A DNA stretch of 64,000 bases. Source: an uncultured Bacilli bacterium (lineage in GTDB: Bacteria; Bacillota_I; Bacilli_A; RF39; UBA660). This document shows positions 10,922-50,501 of the stretch, piece by piece. The DNA is taken from assembly GCA_944358115.1 (NCBI GenBank), contig CALVQH010000001.1:5263-69262 (forward strand). Direction: 5' to 3'. The notes below the pieces were generated by a model, which saw nothing but the letters and a program-made list of their open reading frames with translations, did not search any database and was not told where the DNA came from. The position numbers and the translations under genes were made by a program. Numbering within the stretch: position 1 is the stretch's first letter; the number at the start of each line of letters is the position of its first letter.

Positions 10922-11806
10922 ATGGCAATTCTTTTAAAGAAAAAATTAGAAGTAATGAATCATTTAAAAAACGAAGTAGAATTCATTGAAAAGTTAAATG
11001 AAAAAAAGCCTCATGTGAAAGTAGGAATCTTGAATTTAATGCCAACCCTAGAAGATACTGAAAGACAATTAATGGTTGCTCTTGATACCAAATTGTTGCA
11101 AGTAGAACTAGACTTTTTATATTTAGATACCAAAATAGTAGAGAAAGAAAAAAAAGAGTATTATAAAAAATATTATCGTTCTTTTAGCGAAATAAAAAAA
11201 GAGGACTATGACGGTATCATTATCACCGGTGCTCCTCTTGAACATATTAATTATCATGATATTGATTATATTGAAGAATTAAAAGAATTCTTTAAATACA
11301 CGAAACAACATGTAAGATCAACTCTTTTTTTATGCTGGGCCTCTCAATTCGGTTTACAATATTTTTATGGTGTCAATCGCTATAATTTACCAGAAAAGTT
11401 ATCAGGGATATATGAACATTATATTGTAAAAGAAACGAATTTAGTAAAAGGTTTAAATGATTATTTTTTAGTACCCCAATCAAGATATTGTAGTGTGATT
11501 GAAAGTGAAATTATGGATCGTAAGGATCTTATATTAACAAGCAAATCCAATGAATCTGGACCTTATATTATTGAAAGTATTGATGGCAGTAAAGTCTTTT
11601 TAACAGGACATGCTGAATATGATTTATACACGCTAGATAAAGAATACAAACGAGATATAAATAAAGGATTAAAAATAGATCCGCCATGTAATTATTATAA
11701 AGAGAATGATCCAAAGAAGGATCCAATCTATTCATGGCATGCAACTTCAACCATTATTTATCATAATTGGTTATATTACTATGTTTACGAAGAAGAAGTA
11801 ATGTGA
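10922..11806 (+). CDS. metA: Homoserine O-acyltransferase (MetA family)
   Basis: VGILNLMP...ETQLM...GAPLEH motifs of the MetA/HTS family. Confidence 0.8.
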   Translation: MAILLKKKLEVMNHLKNEVEFIEKLNEKKPHVKVGILNLMPTLEDTERQLMVALDTKLLQVELDFLYLDTKIVEKEKKEYYKKYYRSFSEIKKEDYDGIIITGAPLEHINYHDIDYIEELKEFFKYTKQHVRSTLFLCWASQFGLQYFYGVNRYNLPEKLSGIYEHYIVKETNLVKGLNDYFLVPQSRYCSVIESEIMDRKDLILTSKSNESGPYIIESIDGSKVFLTGHAEYDLYTLDKEYKRDINKGLKIDPPCNYYKENDPKKDPIYSWHATSTIIYHNWLYYYVYEEEVM

Positions 11807-12102
11807 AGAATTTGCCGAAAAGAAAGTATTTTTCCACATCCAAGTTCAATAGTTTTTGAATTTGGATGTATTTTTTTGATTGTACTTTGAATTTCTCTTA
11901 TTTTTCCTGCTTCATAAAAAGTAAGAACAATAGAATCTTTACTATAATAAGCATCCATAATTTCTTCGCTTAAAAAACTAATTTCTTCAGGAAATAAAGT
12001 TGGTTTTTGGAAAACTTGCTGTTCATCAATTTCTCGAAAAACTTCCTTCGAAGGAATAAGAGATTCGAAAGGCCGCCATTTGACAAAACCACGATCAATC
12101 AT
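11785..12102 (-). CDS. YolD-like protein (UmuD-like accessory of the Y-family polymerase)
   Basis: ~105-aa protein immediately downstream of, and overlapping, the Y-family polymerase gene, as in Bacillus uvrX/yolD and yqjW/yqjX pairs. Confidence 0.45.
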   Translation of the reverse strand: MIDRGFVKWRPFESLIPSKEVFREIDEQQVFQKPTLFPEEISFLSEEIMDAYYSKDSIVLTFYEAGKIREIQSTIKKIHPNSKTIELGCGKILSFRQILHITSSS

Positions 12103-13370
12103 GCACTGTGTCCTCCAATCTTTTTATTTCTTTCATAAATGGTTGAATCTGGAAGTAAACTAGATGCTTTTAAAAGAGCATTTTTTCCATACTTATCTTT
12201 AATTTCTAATATAGCTTGATTAATTTGTTCTTGTTCCTTCACTTTTTCTACTTCATCAAAAATATTTAATTGAACTCCTGTTTTATCTTTAAGTTCACCA
12301 CAAGAAACAGTAACCTTACGAATAGGTAATCCTTCATAAAACTTATCAAAAATCATAAGACAGTTTGCTAAAATAACTTGTTCTACATCAGTTGGATTAT
12401 TAAGCTTGATTTGATGAAAGAACCCACCGCCAACACTTTTAGAATATCCAATTCCAAGTCCAATAACAGAAGTGGTTTTATGGTTTTTATAAAGACGAAT
12501 AGCAATTACTTCAACCATTTCTCGAATAATAATTTTAATATTATCACCATGATAATCTTTAAATAGTACTTGACTATGAGAATAAGATTTATCTTCTACT
12601 TTTCCCATATCTCCAATCCGACTTAAATCAATCCCGTTTGCATGATTCCAAAGCTCTTCGCCAATTACTCCGAATTTTTGTTTTAATTCATGACGATCAA
12701 AATGAGCTAAATCATACATCGAATAAATACCTAGTTTATTGAGATTTGCTTCCATCCTCGGGCCAATTCCCCAAACTCTAGATAGGGGAGAAATGCACCA
12801 TAATTTAGTTGGAATATCATCATAATCCCATTTAGCAATAAAATCTTGATTATGTTTTGCTTCAATATCCATACTAACTTTAGCGAGTAACATATTAGGT
12901 CCAATCCCACAAGTAGCGCATAAGCCAGTAGATTTTTTTACATCTTTTAAAATATCTAAGGCAAGCTCATAATCACTTTTTCCATACATTTTAAGATAGT
13001 CCGTAACATCCAAAAAACATTCATCAATCGAATAAATATGTAAATCTTCTTTTGCAACATATTTTAAATAAACTTCAACAACCTCTCTAGATTTCGCTAA
13101 ATATAGGCTCATTCGTGGTTTTGCAATGGTATATTGAATGTGTTTTGGTATTTGATAAAGTCGTCCTCGAGAGGGAACACCTTTCGTTTTTAGATAAGGA
13201 CTAACAGCTAGAGTAATGGCACCATTACCTTGAGTAGGATTCGCAACCACTAAAGGATAATTAAAAGGATCTAATCCTCTTTCAATACATTCACAACTAG
13301 CAAAAAAACTTTTTAAATCAATACACAAAAAATGTCTGTGTAAATAAACCGTATCCATATGCATCACCAT
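12099..13370 (-). CDS. Y-family DNA polymerase (UmuC/DinB/UvrX-like)
   Basis: LCIDLKSFFASCE catalytic motif (D..FFAS.E). Palm and little-finger regions. Confidence 0.85.
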   Translation of the reverse strand: MVMHMDTVYLHRHFLCIDLKSFFASCECIERGLDPFNYPLVVANPTQGNGAITLAVSPYLKTKGVPSRGRLYQIPKHIQYTIAKPRMSLYLAKSREVVEVYLKYVAKEDLHIYSIDECFLDVTDYLKMYGKSDYELALDILKDVKKSTGLCATCGIGPNMLLAKVSMDIEAKHNQDFIAKWDYDDIPTKLWCISPLSRVWGIGPRMEANLNKLGIYSMYDLAHFDRHELKQKFGVIGEELWNHANGIDLSRIGDMGKVEDKSYSHSQVLFKDYHGDNIKIIIREMVEVIAIRLYKNHKTTSVIGLGIGYSKSVGGGFFHQIKLNNPTDVEQVILANCLMIFDKFYEGLPIRKVTVSCGELKDKTGVQLNIFDEVEKVKEQEQINQAILEIKDKYGKNALLKASSLLPDSTIYERNKKIGGHSA

Positions 13371-14165: not shown

Positions 14166-15380
14166 ATGGAGTTCGAAACTTTAAAACAAAGTCATTTAAA
14201 AAGAAATATTATGATAGGAGTAGTAGCAGTACTAATTATTAGTGCCGTAGTACTAAATTTTACCAGAGCAAAATACCGAGTGACACAATCAATACCTTTA
14301 GTCAATGGTACAATCAATTATAGTTTAGCAGACCTAAATATTGTAGCACTATACATTGATGGAGTAGCAGCTGACGAATTAGATAGTTCTAAAAATTATA
14401 CACTAGATACCGATCAAAGTACATGCACCTACAAAGATGGTAGCACAATTCAAAATTTAACATTAAATTATGATAGTGATACCAAAACATTTACGATTGC
14501 TCCTTATACAACCAAGGGAACAAAGTGTACATTGTATTTTGATGAACAAAAGATACCAGCAGTAGATGTAATAGAAGAAGCTTATAACACTAATCCAAAC
14601 ATGTTAGCATATGATGATTATGGAAATTTAAGATACATAGGAGCAGACCCAAATAATTATGTTTTATTTAATAATGAATTATGGAGGATCATAGGAGTAT
14701 TTAGTGAAGATACACATGGAGTAAGTGGAGAAAAATTAGTAAAAATAATTAGAAGTGAATCAATAGGAAGTATAGAATGGGATAGTGGTAACGTAAATGA
14801 TTGGTCCACAGCCAGTTTACAAACAACATTGAATGGGGATTATTTAAATGGAAGTGGAAGCTATGCTAGTACTGGGATAAAAAGTGATACAGCAAGAAAT
14901 ATGATTGAAACGGTAACATGGAAACTTGGTGGAAGAGCAAGTTATACAAGTTCCAGTAATGGACTAGCAAGTCATTTTTATGGATATGAAAGAGGAACAA
15001 CAGTATATAGTGGAAGACCAACAACATGGAGTGGAAAAGTAGCATTAATGTATCCAAGTGATTATGGATATGCCACAAGTGGAGGTTCAACAACAAATAG
15101 AGAAGCATGCCTAGCCAAAGAGTTGTACAACTGGGATTCGTCAAGTTTTAGCGATTGCAAGAACAATGACTGGCTTTATGATAGCAGTACATATCAATGG
15201 ACACTTACGCCGGGCTCGTCGCGTTCGGACTACGTCTTCCTTGTGGGCAAGCCTGGTTTTGTGGGCCGCAGCAATGCGAGCTACTCGAGCGAGGTCCGTC
15301 CTTCGGTATATCTAACATCGAATGTGAAAATCTCAGGAGGTGATGGAACTAGTAATAGTCCATACACTTTGGAGGTGTGA
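14166..15380 (+). CDS. Signal-anchored surface protein, paralog 2 of the GVRP-domain family
   Basis: N-terminal TM followed by TRAKYRVTQSIPLVNGTINYSLADLNIVA, nearly identical to the 59740 protein. The C-terminus LWRIIGVF...GVRPSVYL...GGDGTSNSPYTLEV is shared. The last ~200 nt are unusually GC-rich. Confidence 0.7.
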   Translation: MEFETLKQSHLKRNIMIGVVAVLIISAVVLNFTRAKYRVTQSIPLVNGTINYSLADLNIVALYIDGVAADELDSSKNYTLDTDQSTCTYKDGSTIQNLTLNYDSDTKTFTIAPYTTKGTKCTLYFDEQKIPAVDVIEEAYNTNPNMLAYDDYGNLRYIGADPNNYVLFNNELWRIIGVFSEDTHGVSGEKLVKIIRSESIGSIEWDSGNVNDWSTASLQTTLNGDYLNGSGSYASTGIKSDTARNMIETVTWKLGGRASYTSSSNGLASHFYGYERGTTVYSGRPTTWSGKVALMYPSDYGYATSGGSTTNREACLAKELYNWDSSSFSDCKNNDWLYDSSTYQWTLTPGSSRSDYVFLVGKPGFVGRSNASYSSEVRPSVYLTSNVKISGGDGTSNSPYTLEV

Positions 15381-15449: not shown

Positions 15450-15734
15450 GTGGGAATATATAATAGATATTATATTGCTAAGAAAAAACATCAAGAATAT
15501 CTTATTGTGATTATAAGAAAAGGAAAATATGTTTCTTATGGTATTGATGCTCTCATACTAAAACATTTAAAGACAAATGTGAATATAGAGCATCAACTAC
15601 AAGAAAAACATATTAATTATCTAATATTAGATAATTTAGATATTATAAGTAAATATGCTGATGAAAATAATCAGTATAATAAATATTTTTATTTAGAAAC
15701 AATTAGAAAAATATTAAATAAAATTGTAGGGTAA
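15450..15734 (+). CDS. Small ORF with MutS domain-I-like (mismatch-binding) N-terminal signature; possible gene remnant
   Basis: YYIAKKKHQEYLIVIIRKGKYVSYGIDA resembles MutS [28 protein letters not shown]. GTG start, weak RBS. Confidence 0.35.
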   Translation: MGIYNRYYIAKKKHQEYLIVIIRKGKYVSYGIDALILKHLKTNVNIEHQLQEKHINYLILDNLDIISKYADENNQYNKYFYLETIRKILNKIVG

Positions 15735-15751
15735 GTATTAGTAAAAAACCG

Positions 15752-15856
15752 AACTCGTCGAATTCGAACAACGTCTTCAATGTGAACAATACTGGTTATG
15801 TGAACAACAACAACAATGCGAACAACTCGAACGGGGTCCGTCCTAGAGCTTTCTAA
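15752..15856 (+). pseudogene. Degenerate partial copy of the 3' end of the 14166-15380 gene
   Basis: ~75% nt identity to 15214-15320. Translates to SSNSNNVFNVNNTGYVNNNNNANNSNGVRPRAF* versus the gene's SSRSDYVFLVGKPGFVGRSNASYSSEVRPSVYL. Differences are mostly G/C in the gene versus A in the copy. Confidence 0.6.
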
Positions 15857-15997: not shown

Positions 15998-16357
15998 ATG
16001 AAATTTGTAACAATTAGAAAAATGGGTTTATTTTATCAAGTATTTGATGATGATGCTTTCATATTGCATTATTTATTAGATTATAAAGTAATAGATAGGA
16101 AAGCAGGCTTTCCCAATAATGCAATTAATAAAGTAATAAATATTTTGGAAGCAAAAAAAATTAATTATAAGATTATTGGCGAGAATATAACAAAAGATTT
16201 TAAAGATTTAAATAAATATGCTTTTTATTTAGCAAAATCTAAAGACAAAATAGTTGTTCAAAATTTAATTCATAATATTGAATTAAAATTGGAAGAAAAA
16301 GATGAAAGCGAGTTGCTTCAAATATTAGAAGGAATTGAAAAACTGGTGAATGAATAA
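15998..16357 (+). CDS. Small ORF with MutS domain-I-like signature (119 aa)
   Basis: IRKMGLFYQVFDDDAFILHYLL...AGFPNNA...KKINYKIIGEN parallels MutS [15 protein letters not shown]...GVPYHS...KGYKVAICEQ. Confidence 0.4.
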   Translation: MKFVTIRKMGLFYQVFDDDAFILHYLLDYKVIDRKAGFPNNAINKVINILEAKKINYKIIGENITKDFKDLNKYAFYLAKSKDKIVVQNLIHNIELKLEEKDESELLQILEGIEKLVNE

Positions 16358-16461
16358 TGAGTTTCGAATTGTAAAAAATATGAAGCAATTTATTTTATCT
16401 CTAGATTCTTTTTTATCTTATAGGAAAGTACACGAAAAACGTGTATTTTTAAAACTTATTC

Positions 16462-16490
16462 TTGACGAACGTATGTATTTACAGTATAAT
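16462..16490 (+). promoter_or_regulatory. Sigma-70-type promoter for tnpB
   Basis: TTGACG, 17-nt spacer, TATAAT; about 20 nt upstream of the GGGGTGA RBS. Confidence 0.6.
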
Positions 16491-16509
16491 ACTATTATCA
16501 GGGGTGATT

Positions 16510-17652
16510 ATGATTATGAAAATACACAGGGCATATCAATTTCGTTTGTATCCAACAAAAGAACAAGAAGTAATTATTCGTAAAACATTTAGATGTACGA
16601 GATTTGTTTATAATTATTGTTTAGATTTAAAAAAGAAAAATAATTATTTAACTAAGTTTGACTTAATGAAAGAATTACCAAAATTAAAAAAAGAATATCC
16701 CTTTTTAAAAGAAATAGATAGTTGTTCCTTACAAAATGCCATTACAGATTTAATGGTAGGTTTTAGATTGTTTGAAAAAGGCCATGGAGGATATCCTAAG
16801 TTTAAGAAAAAAGGAGTAAAAGAAAGTTTCCGTACTAGTTTTATTACTAGTAGTTATAAAGGTACAATTTATGAAAATATAAAACTAGATTTAAAAAGAA
16901 GAATCATTGAATTACCAAAAATAAAAGAGATTAAAATAAGAGGATATCGTAATTTAGATAAGATTAGTGGAAGAATACTAAATGCCACGATAAGAGAAGT
17001 AGGCACTAGATTTTATGTGTCTGTATGTGTAGAAGAAGAAATCAAGTTACCAGAAAGAAAAAATAATCAAGCAGTAGGAATCGATATAGGAGTAAAGAAC
17101 TTAGTTGTAACAAGTAATAAAGAATATTATGGGAATCCCCGATATTTAGAAAAATATGAAAAAAAGATAAAAAGATTCCAACAAGAATTATCAAGAAAAA
17201 TAAAGGGAAGTAAAAACTATATTAAGTGTAAGAAAAAATTAGAAGAAGTATATCGAAAGCTAAAAAATGCAAGAAAAAAGACAGTAGAAGAAATAGTAGC
17301 CAAAATAATAGCCTTACATGATATTATTATTGCCGAGAATCTCCAAGTAAAGAAAATGTTAGAGCATAAAAATAACCACAAACATTTACGAAAAGAAATC
17401 ACAAATGCTACATTTAGTGAAATCATAAGAGTACTCAAATATAAGTGCAACTGGTTAAATAAGATATTTATTCAAGTAAATCCCTATTATGCAAGTAGTC
17501 AGATTTGTAGTGGATGTGGAAATAAAGAAAGTATTATGAAAGATATAAGAGTAAGAGAATATAAATGTAGTAAATGTGGTTTAGAAATAGAGAGAGATTA
17601 CAATGCAAGTTTGAATATATTAAAAGAAGGATTAAGATGTTACAATAATTAA
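16510..17652 (+). CDS. tnpB: TnpB (IS605 OrfB family RNA-guided endonuclease)
   Basis: N-terminal MKIHRAYQFRLYPTKEQ (OrfB_IS605 N-terminus). RuvC-like core. C-terminal zinc finger CSGCG...CSKCG. RBS GGGGTGA before ATG 16510. Confidence 0.85.
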   Translation: MIMKIHRAYQFRLYPTKEQEVIIRKTFRCTRFVYNYCLDLKKKNNYLTKFDLMKELPKLKKEYPFLKEIDSCSLQNAITDLMVGFRLFEKGHGGYPKFKKKGVKESFRTSFITSSYKGTIYENIKLDLKRRIIELPKIKEIKIRGYRNLDKISGRILNATIREVGTRFYVSVCVEEEIKLPERKNNQAVGIDIGVKNLVVTSNKEYYGNPRYLEKYEKKIKRFQQELSRKIKGSKNYIKCKKKLEEVYRKLKNARKKTVEEIVAKIIALHDIIIAENLQVKKMLEHKNNHKHLRKEITNATFSEIIRVLKYKCNWLNKIFIQVNPYYASSQICSGCGNKESIMKDIRVREYKCSKCGLEIERDYNASLNILKEGLRCYNN

Positions 17653-17770
17653 ATTAAATGAAAATAAAGAAAGAAAGTACGGGAGCAACTCTCGGAGTTT
17701 ATGTCTGTGATGTATTAAAATACAGCAGAAAAAAACGAATCGTGAGGTTCGGCGAATTAACGTAAGTTAA
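17600..17770 (+). ncRNA. Candidate TnpB-associated guide (omega-RNA) / IS right-end region
   Basis: Structured segment spanning the 3' end of tnpB and ~120 nt downstream. Stem-loops such as ctgtgatgtatt-aaa-atacagcag and the near-palindrome ttcggcgaa. By analogy to IS605-family omega-RNAs only. Confidence 0.25.
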
Positions 17771-18199
17771 TTCTTATGTTCTTTAAATAGATTAGACCAT
17801 TATATTATTCACAATTTACATTTAAAGTATTATGTTCGATATATGGATGACTTTTTAATATTTCATCATGACAAATATTATTTGGAAGAATGTCTAATTA
17901 AAATAAAATATCAATTAAATAACATTTATCATTTGAATATTAATGAAAATAAAACAAAGATAATTAATACAAAAGAAGGATTCGTCTTATTAGGTTATTA
18001 TTTTAAAATAAGAAATAAAAAGACAATAATAAAACAAACATGGAATAAAGTACAAAAAAGAATAAAAGATAGTAATGATTTATATAATAAAAAGCAAATA
18101 ACTTTTTCCAAATATTTTTCATCTATTAATAATTATCGCTTTACTTTTAAATATTCTAATAATCATAAAATAACAAAATATATTGAAAGAAATTATTAG
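17771..18199 (+). pseudogene. 5'-truncated reverse transcriptase (retron/group-II/Abi-like RT, C-terminal part only)
   Basis: The frame opens right after a stop at 17768 and reads ...NRLDHYIIHNLHLKYYVRYMDDFLIF (RT motif 5, YxDD), then LNINENKTKI (motif 6) and GFVLLGYYF (motif 7). No fingers/palm motifs 1-4 and no start codon. Confidence 0.65.
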
Positions 18200-32621: not shown

Positions 32622-32890
32622 TGGAAAAAGAAGATATTATTACACTTGAAGATAATACCGAGTATATGGTGCTAGATACAGCTCTTTTAAATCAAGAAAA
32701 ATATTTATATTGTGTGCGAATAGATGAAGAAGAAAAACCAACAAGTGAATATAAATATTTTAAAGAGATTAATGAAAATAATGAATTATTCACGGAAGAA
32801 GTAGAAGATGAAGTCGTGATTGAAACCATTACTTCTATGTTCGCCGCTGATTATTTAAATAGTGTAACAGACGAAGAACAAGACGTTTAA
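32621..32890 (+). CDS. DUF1292-like small acidic protein
   Basis: MEKEDIITLEDNTEYMVLDT...YLYCVRIDEE pattern. Confidence 0.45.
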   Translation: MEKEDIITLEDNTEYMVLDTALLNQEKYLYCVRIDEEEKPTSEYKYFKEINENNELFTEEVEDEVVIETITSMFAADYLNSVTDEEQDV

Positions 32891-32894
32891 AAGG

Positions 32895-33080
32895 AAAACT
32901 AAAAAAGAGACTTGATGGTTGGTGAAAAATCAAGAGTAGAACTTTTAAAAAATCACTTGGGAGTCGAATATTTGATAAGTAAAATATTACGTAACTTTGC
33001 GTTAAAAAGAAAAAGAGAAAAATAAAGGTGGTACCGCGCATAAAACTTGCGCCCTTTGGTGCTACCTTTTTTGTGTAAAA
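32895..33080 (+). promoter_or_regulatory. T-box riboswitch leader controlling ileS
   Basis: Conserved T-box sequence AAAGGTGGTACCGCG at 33024-33038 overlapping a terminator (gcgccctttggtgctacc plus T6). Candidate AUC specifier at 32929-32931. Confidence 0.75.
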
Positions 33081-50339: not shown

Positions 50340-50416
50340 TGGTCGGGAAGACAGGATTTGAACCTGCGACCCCTTGGTCCCAAACCAAGTGCACTACCAA
50401 ATTGTGCTACTTCCCG
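50340..50416 (-). tRNA. tRNA-Pro (anticodon UGG)
   Basis: CGGGAAGTAGCACAAT...anticodon loop TTTGGGA...CCA, read on the minus strand. Confidence 0.85.
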
Positions 50417-50424
50417 ATAATTAA

Positions 50425-50501
50425 TGGTGCGCCCTAAGGGAGTCGAACCCCTAACCTTTAGATCCGTAGTCTAACGCTCTATCCAATTGAGCTAAGGGCG
50501 C
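50425..50501 (-). tRNA. tRNA-Arg (anticodon ACG)
   Basis: GCGCCCTTAGCTCAATTGGATAGAGCGTTAGACTACGGATCTAAAGG...CCA closely matches Bacillus tRNA-Arg(ACG). Confidence 0.85.

What the first reader, a model, noticed from the sequence alone, without database searches (positions are those of the whole stretch)
16400..18199. TnpB (IS1341-like) insertion with its own consensus promoter abutting a decapitated reverse-transcriptase gene
TnpB has a textbook N-terminus, a C-terminal Zn finger and a TTGACG-17-TATAAT promoter inside the element. About 120 nt after its stop, an RT reading frame starts without a start codon immediately after a stop at 17768, and contains motifs 5-7 only (YVRYMDDFLIF, LNINENKTKI, GFVLLGYYF). 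The short (~100 aa) region after YxDD fits retron/Abi/DRT-type RTs better than a full group-II intron maturase. The missing fingers/palm half is not upstream of the IS left end, so insertion was likely accompanied by deletion. A retron-like or defence RT may have been destroyed here.
Basis: partly seen in the sequence, partly recalled or inferred. Interest (0 to 1): 0.55.

Follow-up and report, generated by a model that had tools for sequence, protein, structure and literature searches.

The report
TnpB insertion sequence inside a dead DGR
A small TnpB-carrying insertion sequence sits in a diversity-generating retroelement (not a retron or defence system), where 889 bp holding most of avd and the first 211 codons of the reverse transcriptase are missing; both parts are known kinds and this sort of damage has been reported before.

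Summary
An intact tnpB (16516-17652) with a conserved TTGACG-17-TATAAT promoter is followed by a headless reverse-transcriptase (RT) reading frame.

The RT is not retron/Abi/DRT-like. It is the RT of a diversity-generating retroelement (DGR):
- target gene 14166-15380, with variable repeat (VR) 15210-15302;
- template repeat (TR) 15749-15844, with 20 substitutions at 32 TR adenines against 2 at 64 other bases;
- a MutS-like accessory gene, 15998-16357;
- the first 22 codons of avd, 16350-16415.

Syntenic relatives (L099, L100) carry intact avd (112 aa) and RT (352 aa) and no insertion sequence (IS).

Eight independent copies fix the IS at 16416-17781 (1366 bp). It is an IS200/IS605-family, tnpB-only element with no tnpA in the window. 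It inserts after a T-run ending in A. Its 3' end holds a four-hairpin, covariation-supported RNA that looks like an omega RNA (17680-17781).

In the window the IS replaces 889 bp: avd codons 23-112 and RT codons 1-211. In intact relatives both deletion ends lie directly after TTTTTTA.

The same junctions occur in at least 13 contigs from many samples. Each target-gene allele linked to the IS is identical across samples, so the VR looks frozen.

This is an ordinary, well-resolved case of a known kind.

The parts
14166..15380 (+). DGR target gene (404 aa). It has an N-terminal membrane anchor and a hypervariable C-terminal region.
   Evidence: ORF. The family has more than 7,800 homologues with many VR alleles. 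The same position is occupied in the intact DGR loci L099 and L100.
15210..15302 (+). Variable repeat (VR), codons 349-379 of the target gene.
   Evidence: It matches the TR with 20 substitutions at TR adenines, 2 at other bases, and one codon fewer. Fisher p = 1.7e-10.
15450..15734 (+). Conserved 94-aa ORF of unknown function between the target gene and the TR.
   Evidence: Present at the same place in all related loci. No Pfam or NCBIfam hit.
15749..15844 (+). Template repeat (TR), rich in AAC codons.
   Evidence: It is 100% identical in L001-L007, L016, L099 and L100, while the VRs differ.
15998..16357 (+). MutS-domain-I-like (MSL) accessory gene, 119 aa.
   Evidence: Pfam MutS_I gives E = 0.0012 and 19.5 bits, just under the 20.6-bit cut-off. 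MSL plus avd is a described DGR architecture (PMC5758913).
16350..16415 (+). Remnant of avd: the first 22 codons, MNNEFRIVKNMKQFILSLDSFL.
   Evidence: Identical to the start of the 112-aa bAvd of L100. A tblastn search with Avd matches only this stretch in the window.
16409..16415 (+). TTTTTTA: the target / transposon-adjacent motif (TAM) that abuts the IS left end.
   Evidence: In 8 of the 9 related copies with a recognisable left end, and in the window, the left flank ends in a T-run plus A. L032 ends in AATTA instead. The intact avd of L099 and L100 has the same heptamer here.
16416..17781 (+). IS200/IS605-family, tnpB-only (IS1341-type) insertion sequence, 1366 bp.
   Evidence: Ends defined by aligning independent copies L019-L027, L031 and L032 and by comparison with IS-free loci L007, L099 and L100.
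16429..16445 (+). Left-end subterminal hairpin (TACACG-N5-CGTGTA).
   Evidence: Conserved, with a compensatory change in L032 (TACATG...CATGTA). Also picked up by the hairpin scan.
16462..16490 (+). tnpB promoter, TTGACG-17-TATAAT.
   Evidence: 11 of 12 matches. Conserved in every copy, including L022, whose upstream left end differs.
16516..17652 (+). tnpB, 378 aa from the conserved ATG (380 aa from 16510).
   Evidence: Motifs GIDIG (188), IAENL (272) and ERDYNA (359), which hold the RuvC D-E-D residues, and CSGCG/CSKCG are present. They align with the corresponding motifs of a solved TnpB-like nuclease.
17680..17781 (+). 3' part of a likely omega-RNA scaffold: four hairpins that end exactly at the IS right end.
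   Evidence: RNAalifold on 7 copies. Covariance model R1 finds it just 3' of tnpB in 21 sequences, the window included. 26 of 30 pairs change on both sides and 95.7% of cells pair, against 36-50% when the partners are slid. This stretch is 89-93% identical between copies whose coding sequences are 83-86% identical.
17782..17801 (+). Flank that would supply the omega-RNA guide (TTTAAATAGATTAGACCATT).
   Evidence: Inference from how IS200/IS605 TnpB works (PMC10055086). The intact RT of L099 carries TTTTTTA followed by this exact 20-mer.
17782..18199 (+). Remnant of the DGR RT gene: third base of codon 211, codons 212-352 and the stop. It carries a 9-nt in-frame deletion near 18036.

Best explanation
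The window carries a chromosomal diversity-generating retroelement with this gene order: target gene with VR, a 94-aa ORF, TR, a MutS-like gene, avd, RT. A 1366-bp non-autonomous IS200/IS605-family element has knocked it out.

The IS carries only tnpB, its own promoter and a structured 3' RNA. It lies between two TTTTTTA sites, one in avd codon 22 and one in RT codon 211. The 889 bp between those sites are gone. That removes Avd residues 23-112 and RT residues 1-211, which include RT motifs 1-4 and the IGNLTSQ motif. The cassette therefore keeps its template and its target but cannot make cDNA, so the VR is frozen.

Inferred mechanism. The IS is moved in trans by a Y1 TnpA as single-stranded DNA and inserts 3' of a TTTTA-type motif. 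TnpB, together with an omega RNA that reads out of the right end into the RT remnant, would cut the IS-free joint (TTTTA followed by TTTAAATAGATTAG...) and so favour retention of the IS.

The deletion most likely arose in one of two ways. Either two copies inserted at the two TTTTTTA sites and then recombined, or a single copy inserted at the RT site and the 7-bp repeats then mediated a deletion.

Shown here: the anatomy, the IS ends, the deletion, the DGR identity and the RNA structure. Inferred: transposition, TnpB activity, the guide, and the route to the deletion.
For: DGR identity
- TR/VR pair: 20 of 32 TR adenines are substituted against 2 of 64 other bases. Fisher p = 1.7e-10.
- The TR is invariant across strains while the VRs differ.
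- Syntenic IS-free loci L099 and L100 have bAvd (112 aa) and an RT of 352 aa.
- Avd hits NF033474 DivGenRetAVD (E = 5e-12) and PF22296 (E = 3e-8).
- The best solved-structure match of the relatives' RT is the 328-aa RT 8ub7 (E = 6.7e-21). It aligns LPIGNLTSQ with IPIGSLTSQ. Retron-type RT chains score only E of about 3e-3.

IS identity and ends.

Deletion: window 16415 and 17782 correspond to L100 7124 and 8014. The gap is 889 bp, and both ends are preceded by TTTTTTA. That heptamer occurs only 37 times on the + strand of the 64-kb window.

Reality of the insertion: identical junctions occur in L001-L006, L016-L019 and L102-L104, from more than ten samples.

RNA structure.

No tnpA: a tblastn query finds tnpA next to distant tnpB homologues but not in the window or in the closely related loci.

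Frozen VR
- The exact 404-aa target protein occurs in 3 contigs.
- The exact P0049 allele occurs in 5 IS-bearing contigs from different samples.
- The window VR carries a non-adenine change (GGG to GAG, G376E) that is absent from the IS-free L105 allele, which otherwise shares this VR.
Against: - No expression or activity data exist for TnpB or the RNA.
- The TAM is read from flanks only, and one copy (L032) has AATTA rather than TTTTA.
- The left-end and right-end hairpins are not alike in sequence, unlike IS608.
- IS-bearing contigs carry at least three different target/VR alleles, and several contigs break inside the VR. Taken alone, that could mean continued diversification.
- The rest of the genome could not be searched for a second RT.
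- The Avd and MSL matches are below the curated bit cut-offs.
Confidence: 0.9

Rival explanations
1. One reading: the truncated RT belonged to a retron, Abi or DRT-type defence system that the IS destroyed.
For: The region after YxDD is short. The full-length relative RT gives weak hits to Drt3a (54.6 bits), Drt2 and Drt5 and to retron-type RT structures (E of about 3e-3).
Against: All DRT hits are far below their cut-offs (200-550 bits). A TR/VR pair with adenine-specific changes, an avd remnant and intact Avd+RT relatives place the RT in a DGR. Rfam finds no RNA family near the locus. The RT matches the 328-aa RT 8ub7 about 18 orders of magnitude better than it matches retron-type RTs.
Confidence: 0.02
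2. The orphaned target-TR cassette is still diversified. An RT and Avd supplied in trans by a second DGR elsewhere in the genome would do this, so the IS insertion would not silence hypermutation.
For: - IS-bearing contigs that are otherwise nearly identical to the window differ inside the VR. L003 has 13 mismatches in 15264-15297 but only 1 in the next 4.3 kb. L004 has 5 in the VR and 0 afterwards.
- Four contigs start inside or just after the VR.
- The TR is perfectly conserved.
- DGR components can act in trans and on remote targets (PMC5758913).
- Degenerate DGR loci sit alongside complete ones in one genome (PMC10907252).
Against: - In L019/P0049 the whole gene body (14400-15300), not only the VR, differs from the window. 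That points to allele replacement by recombination.
- Each IS-linked allele is identical across several samples.
- The IS-free L105 carries the window-type VR.
- The L003/L004 alleles and the window allele have non-adenine changes.
- There is no second RT or avd in the 64-kb window.
Confidence: 0.07
3. The juxtaposition is an assembly chimera across a repeated IS, and the DGR is really intact.
For: L103 joins the same IS right end to a different flank, a PFOR gene. So the IS is repeated and can mislead assemblers.
Against: The same left and right junctions occur in at least 13 contigs from independent assemblies and samples. These include contigs of 84.7 kb and 16 kb that span both sides. A chimera also could not explain the loss of 889 bp with synteny preserved on both sides.
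Confidence: 0.01

Closest known systems
DGRs with an MSL (MutS-like) accessory gene plus avd: 'Architecture D' of Wu et al. 2018 (PMC5758913). The prototype DGR is that of Bordetella phage BPP-1.
   Same: It has a target gene with a 3' VR and an AAC-rich TR with adenine-specific differences. A small MutS-domain-I-like ORF and avd lie upstream of the RT. In relatives the RT carries the IGNLTSQ motif.
   Different: In the window, avd is cut to 22 codons and the RT lacks codons 1-211, so the element is not functional. An extra conserved 94-aa ORF sits between the target gene and the TR. The host is an uncultured, low-GC (29.5%) gut bacterium of class Bacilli.
IS200/IS605-family tnpB elements with omega RNA: ISDra2 and ISGst2/3 (Meers et al. 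2023, PMC10055086), and the tnpB-only IS1341 group.
   Same: TnpB has the HTH, RuvC and zinc-ribbon parts and matches ISDra2 TnpB structures at E = 3.5e-54. The element has subterminal hairpins and inserts 3' of a short AT-rich motif (ISGst2 uses TTTAT). A structured RNA ends at the right end.
   Different: There is no tnpA in cis or in the window. The inferred motif is a T-run plus A (TTTTA or TTTTTTA), usually the tail of a terminator-like hairpin. The left-end and right-end hairpins differ in sequence. The score is below the NCBIfam IS200_TnpB 'exception' cut-off (334 against 425 bits). No Rfam family matches the RNA.
Transposon-degraded DGR loci in Thiohalocapsa PB-PSB1 (Dore et al. 2024, PMC10907252).
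   Same: Strains with an intact DGR RT coexist with variants in which a transposon interrupts or deletes the RT. Target genes and TRs remain.
   Different: The transposon family differs. Here it is a TnpB-only IS200/IS605 element with a precise motif-to-motif deletion. The host and the target protein family also differ. No complete sister DGR has been identified here.

Membership tests
IS200/IS605 family, tnpB-only (IS1341-type) element | Encodes a TnpB with an N-terminal HTH, an OrfB_IS605 RuvC domain and a C-terminal zinc ribbon. | tested here: met
   Pfam PF12323, PF01385 and PF07282 all score above their cut-offs. NF040570 guided_TnpB scores 280.7 against 100. ISDra2 TnpB structures match at E = 3.5e-54.
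IS200/IS605 family, tnpB-only (IS1341-type) element | RuvC D-E-D catalytic residues and CxxC...CxxC are intact. | tested here: met
   GIDIG, IAENL, ERDYNA, CSGCG and CSKCG are present. They align with the same motifs in a solved TnpB-like nuclease. Catalysis itself was not tested.
IS200/IS605 family, tnpB-only (IS1341-type) element | Multiple copies share defined ends at unrelated sites, insert 3' of a short conserved motif, and make no target duplication. | tested here: met
   Related copies share ends at 16416 and 17781 and have unrelated flanks. Left flanks end in a T-run plus A. At the RT site the intact sequence TTTTTTA|TTTAAATAG is split with no duplication.
IS200/IS605 family, tnpB-only (IS1341-type) element | Subterminal hairpins at both ends. 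| tested here: met
   The left-end hairpin at 16429-16445 shows a compensatory change in L032. The right-end hairpin GAATTAAC-GTAA-GTTAATTC lies at 17756-17775.
IS200/IS605 family, tnpB-only (IS1341-type) element | A structured omega RNA at the 3' end that stops at the right-end boundary. | tested here: met
   A four-hairpin consensus structure. The model recovers it 3' of tnpB in relatives down to about 45% protein identity. 26 of 30 pairs covary, with the caveat that this alignment was fitted to the model. Transcription and the guide were not tested.
IS200/IS605 family, tnpB-only (IS1341-type) element | A Y1 transposase TnpA in the element (autonomous IS605/IS608 type). | tested here: not met
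   tblastn with an IS608 TnpA sequence written from memory finds tnpA beside distant homologues (L053, L059 and others). It finds none in the window or in loci L019-L045. The element is therefore non-autonomous.
Diversity-generating retroelement (DGR) | A TR/VR repeat pair whose differences fall almost only at TR adenines. | tested here: met
   20 of 32 adenine sites against 2 of 64 other sites, p = 1.7e-10. The intact relatives L099 and L100 show 20/1 and 18/0.
Diversity-generating retroelement (DGR) | The VR lies at the 3' end of a protein-coding target gene. | tested here: met
   The VR covers codons 349-379 of the 404-codon gene.
Diversity-generating retroelement (DGR) | A DGR-clade RT adjacent to the TR, with the (I/L)GxxxSQ motif. 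| tested here: met
   The window remnant is 89% identical (tblastn against the L007-derived composite RT) to the C-terminal part of the RT in the IS-free relative L007, and it occupies the same position as the 352-aa RTs of the syntenic loci L099 and L100. Those RTs carry LPIGNLTSQ and best match the 328-aa RT 8ub7 (E = 6.7e-21). I believe from memory that 8ub7 is the Bordetella phage DGR RT, but I could not confirm this. The motif itself is deleted in the window.
Diversity-generating retroelement (DGR) | An Avd accessory protein. | tested here: met
   The window keeps codons 1-22. The full-length relatives hit NF033474 (E = 5e-12, 46 bits against a cut-off of 80) and PF22296 (E = 3e-8, 34.5 against 40) over the whole profile. 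The E-values are significant, but the scores are below the curated bit cut-offs.
Diversity-generating retroelement (DGR) | An MSL accessory gene (Architecture D). | tested here: inconclusive
   Pfam MutS_I gives E = 0.0012 and 19.5 bits against a cut-off of 20.6. Its position matches the described architecture.
Diversity-generating retroelement (DGR) | A C-type-lectin or Ig fold that displays the VR. | tested here: inconclusive
   The AlphaFold2 model has mean pLDDT 49 and below 35 over the VR domain, so no fold search was run. One homologue has a weak DUF6273 hit.
Diversity-generating retroelement (DGR) | A complete, self-sufficient cassette (intact RT and Avd). | tested here: not met
   889 bp are missing: Avd codons 23-112 and RT codons 1-211. 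This is a DGR remnant.
Retron / Abi / DRT defence reverse transcriptases | The RT scores as a member of a DRT, Abi or retron family. | tested here: not met
   Drt3a scores 54.6 against 200, Drt2 39.4 against 390 and Drt5 25.4 against 550. Retron-type RT structures match only at E of about 3e-3.
Retron / Abi / DRT defence reverse transcriptases | An adjacent msr/msd or other system-specific non-coding RNA, or an effector gene. | tested here: not met
   Rfam gathering-threshold hits in the window are only a T-box and four tRNAs. The neighbours are DGR parts and housekeeping genes.
Group II intron RT/maturase | A full maturase-type RT with intron RNA domains. | tested here: not met
   TIGR04416 scores 90.4 bits against a cut-off of 300. 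Rfam finds no group II intron.

The most novel reading that the evidence does not exclude
The IS machinery itself may have made the motif-to-motif deletion and then spread it. The omega-RNA guide of this copy matches the intact RT allele of IS-free strains: TTTTTTA followed by an exact 20-nt match in L099. TnpB could therefore cut intact alleles, and recombination would copy in the allele carrying the IS plus the deletion. That would explain why a single insertion event is linked to at least three different target/VR alleles. A related possibility is that the orphaned TR/VR is still served in trans by another DGR.
Probability: 0.1. Interest if true: 0.5.

Novelty: new member of a known kind. 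Interest (0 to 1): 0.25.

Why it matters
- It corrects an annotation trap. A headless RT next to a TnpB in a gut Bacilli genome is a dead DGR, not a lost defence system.
- It gives a cleanly resolved natural pair of states, intact and IS-disrupted, at one locus. It includes defined IS ends, an inferred T-rich TAM and a covariation-supported omega-RNA scaffold for an uncharacterised TnpB lineage. These could be used to test TAM and guide rules, or to ask whether VR diversity collapses once the RT is lost.
- It adds one more example of mobile elements eroding DGRs, which is already documented. It opens no new question on its own.

Tried and rejected
- Other IS copies in the window: blastn and tblastn of the IS, TnpB and the RT fragment against the window found no second copy and no second RT.
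- Rfam at gathering thresholds: nothing at the locus.
- Exact-protein look-ups with MSL and TnpB returned only the same insertion. IS ends therefore had to come from copies 79-85% identical in related genomes.
- A tempting alignment extended RT homology left to about 17764 with a 6-nt gap. I rejected it because independent IS copies share that sequence up to 17781.
- I asked whether the VR being one codon shorter than the TR marks decay. I rejected this because 31-codon and 32-codon VRs are both common among homologues (41 and 51 of 98).
- The two small ORFs (94 aa and MSL) are not detectably related to each other.
- The structure prediction of the target protein was too poor to use (pLDDT 49), so no fold search was run.
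- I could not confirm from the papers held what PDB entry 8ub7 is.
- The cluster look-up for the target protein gave a one-member cluster.
Full report
**1. Checking the observation**

The reported features are in the sequence.
- An ORF at 16462/16510/16516-17652 encodes a protein with the three Pfam domains typical of TnpB: HTH_OrfB_IS605, OrfB_IS605 and the Cas12f1-like TNB zinc ribbon.
- It passes the NCBIfam guided_TnpB cut-off and matches ISDra2 TnpB structures at E = 3.5e-54.
- TTGACG-17-TATAAT at 16462-16490 is the best promoter-like site in the region.
- After TAA at 17768-17770, an open frame runs to 18199. It has no start codon and matches only the last third of the Pfam RVT_1 profile (positions 135-204 of 205).

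A full-length RT from a relative matches the window only over residues 213-353, at 17783-18196. So the missing half is nowhere in the 64 kb.

**2. What the RT belonged to**

The region upstream of the finding decides this. A 93-nt stretch at the 3' end of the 404-codon gene 14166-15380 (15210-15302) repeats at 15749-15844. The second copy is rich in AAC codons.

The two copies differ at 20 of the 32 adenines of the second copy. They differ at only 2 of its 64 other bases, plus one missing codon. Fisher p = 1.7e-10. This is the template-repeat / variable-repeat signature of a diversity-generating retroelement.

Between the TR and the IS lie two further parts:
- a 119-aa ORF with a borderline MutS domain I match;
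- overlapping its stop, 22 codons (16350-16415) identical to the start of a bAvd-like protein in relatives.

MutS-like (MSL) genes together with avd are a described DGR architecture (PMC5758913).

**3. The uninterrupted state**

Look-ups of related target proteins returned syntenic contigs L099 and L100. Their gene order is: target, 94-aa ORF, TR, MSL (119 aa), bAvd (112 aa), RT (352 aa), then the same DNA-alkylation-repair gene as in the window. They carry no IS.
- Their TR is identical to the window's, and their VRs differ from it at 18-20 adenine sites and 0-1 other sites.
- Their RT carries LPIGNLTSQ. Its best solved-structure match is the 328-aa RT 8ub7 (E = 6.7e-21), far ahead of group II and retron-type RTs.
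- DRT and group II NCBIfam models score well below their cut-offs.
- Avd hits the DGR Avd models with significant E-values, though below the curated bit scores.

The retron/Abi/DRT reading is therefore not supported.

**4. The insertion sequence and its ends**

The genome-collection scan found tnpB copies 79-85% identical at unrelated sites in related uncultured Bacilli genomes. One of them is a second copy in the MAG that holds L019, which carries this same insertion (TnpB 99% identical).

Aligning their flanks places the left end at 16416 (TCTTATAGGAAAGTACACG...) and the right end at 17781 (...TTAATTCTTATGTTC). The element is 1366 bp.
- The promoter, the ribosome-binding site and the ATG at 16516 are conserved in all copies.
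- A left-end hairpin (16429-16445) is conserved, with a compensatory change in one copy.
- Left flanks end in a run of T followed by A, apart from L032 (AATTA). In most copies this run is the tail of a terminator-like hairpin. I read this as a TTTTA-type transposon-adjacent motif. ISGst2 uses TTTAT (PMC10055086).
- A tnpA query that detects tnpA next to distant homologues finds none in the window or in the close loci. The element is non-autonomous.

**5. The 3' RNA**

The 102 nt before the right end (17680-17781) are better conserved between copies (89-93% identity) than the coding sequence (83-86%). They fold into four hairpins.

A covariance model built from seven copies finds the same structure directly 3' of tnpB in relatives down to about 45% protein identity. 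Across 24 matches, 26 of 30 pairs change on both sides. 95.7% of cells pair, against 36-50% when the partners are slid. This alignment is fitted to the model, so the counts lean towards the structure.

The position and form fit an omega-RNA scaffold whose guide would be the next roughly 20 nt, TTTAAATAGATTAGACCATT. Expression and cleavage were not tested.

**6. The deletion**

Window 16415 corresponds to L100 7124, and window 17783 to L100 8014. 889 bp are absent (890 bp against L007). They encode Avd residues 23-112 and RT residues 1-211.

In the intact loci both breakpoints lie directly after TTTTTTA:
- in avd, GATTCTTTTTTA|ATTAATT;
- in the RT, GCATTTTTTA|TTTAAATAG.

That heptamer occurs 37 times on the + strand of the window and four times in the avd-RT region, so the coincidence is unlikely to be chance. 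It fits two routes equally well:
- two copies inserted at the two sites and then recombined;
- one copy inserted at the RT site, followed by a deletion between the 7-bp repeats.

I cannot tell these apart.

**7. Is it real, and is the cassette dead?**

The same junctions occur in at least 13 contigs from more than ten samples and assemblies. This excludes a chimera.

One observation was puzzling. IS-bearing contigs carry at least three target/VR alleles, and several contigs break inside the VR. Four results argue for recombination of old alleles rather than continued mutagenesis:
- In the L019/P0049 allele the whole gene body from 14400 to 15300 is replaced, while the flanks differ by about 1%.
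- That allele is identical in five IS-bearing contigs from different samples, and the window allele is identical in three.
- The IS-free contig L105 carries the window-type VR.
- The window VR has since gained a non-adenine change, GGG to GAG.

Activity in trans stays possible, at low probability. The rest of the genome could not be searched.

**8. Comparison with what is known, and verdict**

Both components are known kinds:
- a DGR of the MSL+avd architecture (PMC5758913);
- an IS200/IS605 tnpB-only element with an omega RNA (PMC10055086).

DGR RT genes interrupted or deleted by transposons, coexisting with intact variants, have been described (PMC10907252).

What is specific here is the clean motif-to-motif deletion, and a guide that matches the intact RT allele exactly (L099). 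This is a new member of known kinds and of modest interest.

Noticed in passing
window 59106-61074: A second copy of the gene pair 'double-HTH regulator (minus strand) + membrane-anchored target-like protein (455 aa)'. Its 5' end is 76% identical in DNA to the DGR target gene. It has no TR match, RT or avd nearby. It looks like a non-diversified paralogue of the DGR target.
   Followed up: partly
window 14400-15300, compared with L019 and L007: Between strains whose flanks differ by about 1% (L019), the body of the target gene, not only the VR, differs by 10-30 mismatches per 100 nt. The divergence stops exactly at the 3' end of the VR (15302). This looks like a recombination or allele-replacement hotspot.
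   Followed up: partly
L007 2293-3367; L008 2629-3514: IS-free relatives also have broken RT genes. L007 has a frameshift in an A-run (157 + 174 aa). L008, seen in 7 contigs, is split and ends early (112 + 145 aa). DGR decay seems recurrent in this clade, unless the L007 case is a homopolymer sequencing error.
   Followed up: partly
L103 8416 onward: The same IS right end is joined to a different flank (TTTTGAACAAAATTCGGG..., upstream of a pyruvate:ferredoxin oxidoreductase gene). This is either a second copy of the IS in that strain or an assembly cross-over at the repeat.
   Followed up: no
left flanks of IS copies in L020, L021, L023, L024, L026, L032: This IS lineage is mostly found directly after terminator-like hairpins with a T-run. 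This suggests a preference for the tails of intrinsic terminators. The window copy, inside coding sequence, is an exception.
   Followed up: partly
window about 18036: The RT remnant has a 9-nt in-frame deletion (IIKLRKETWNK to IIKQTWNK) relative to L007, L099 and L100. This may be decay after inactivation.
   Followed up: no
window 15210-15302, and homologues P0010-P0129: VRs come in two common lengths, 31 codons (41 homologues) and 32 codons (51 homologues). The TR here encodes 32, with five consecutive Asn codons (four AAC and one AAT). One codon may be skipped during copying, or TR lengths may differ between lineages.
   Followed up: partly
window 11785-13370 (minus strand): A Y-family DNA polymerase (IMS domains) and a YolD-like gene sit next to the regulator and the DGR target. 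The arrangement is conserved in all related loci. An error-prone polymerase beside a hypermutation cassette may be coincidence.
   Followed up: no
window 15450-15734: A 94-aa ORF between the target gene and the TR is conserved in every related DGR locus. It has no family match and no detectable similarity to the MSL protein. It may be an undescribed DGR accessory gene.
   Followed up: partly
window 32865-33059; 8018, 50340-50501, 52885: A T-box leader and four tRNA genes (Glu, Pro, Arg, Ala). These are ordinary features.
   Followed up: no
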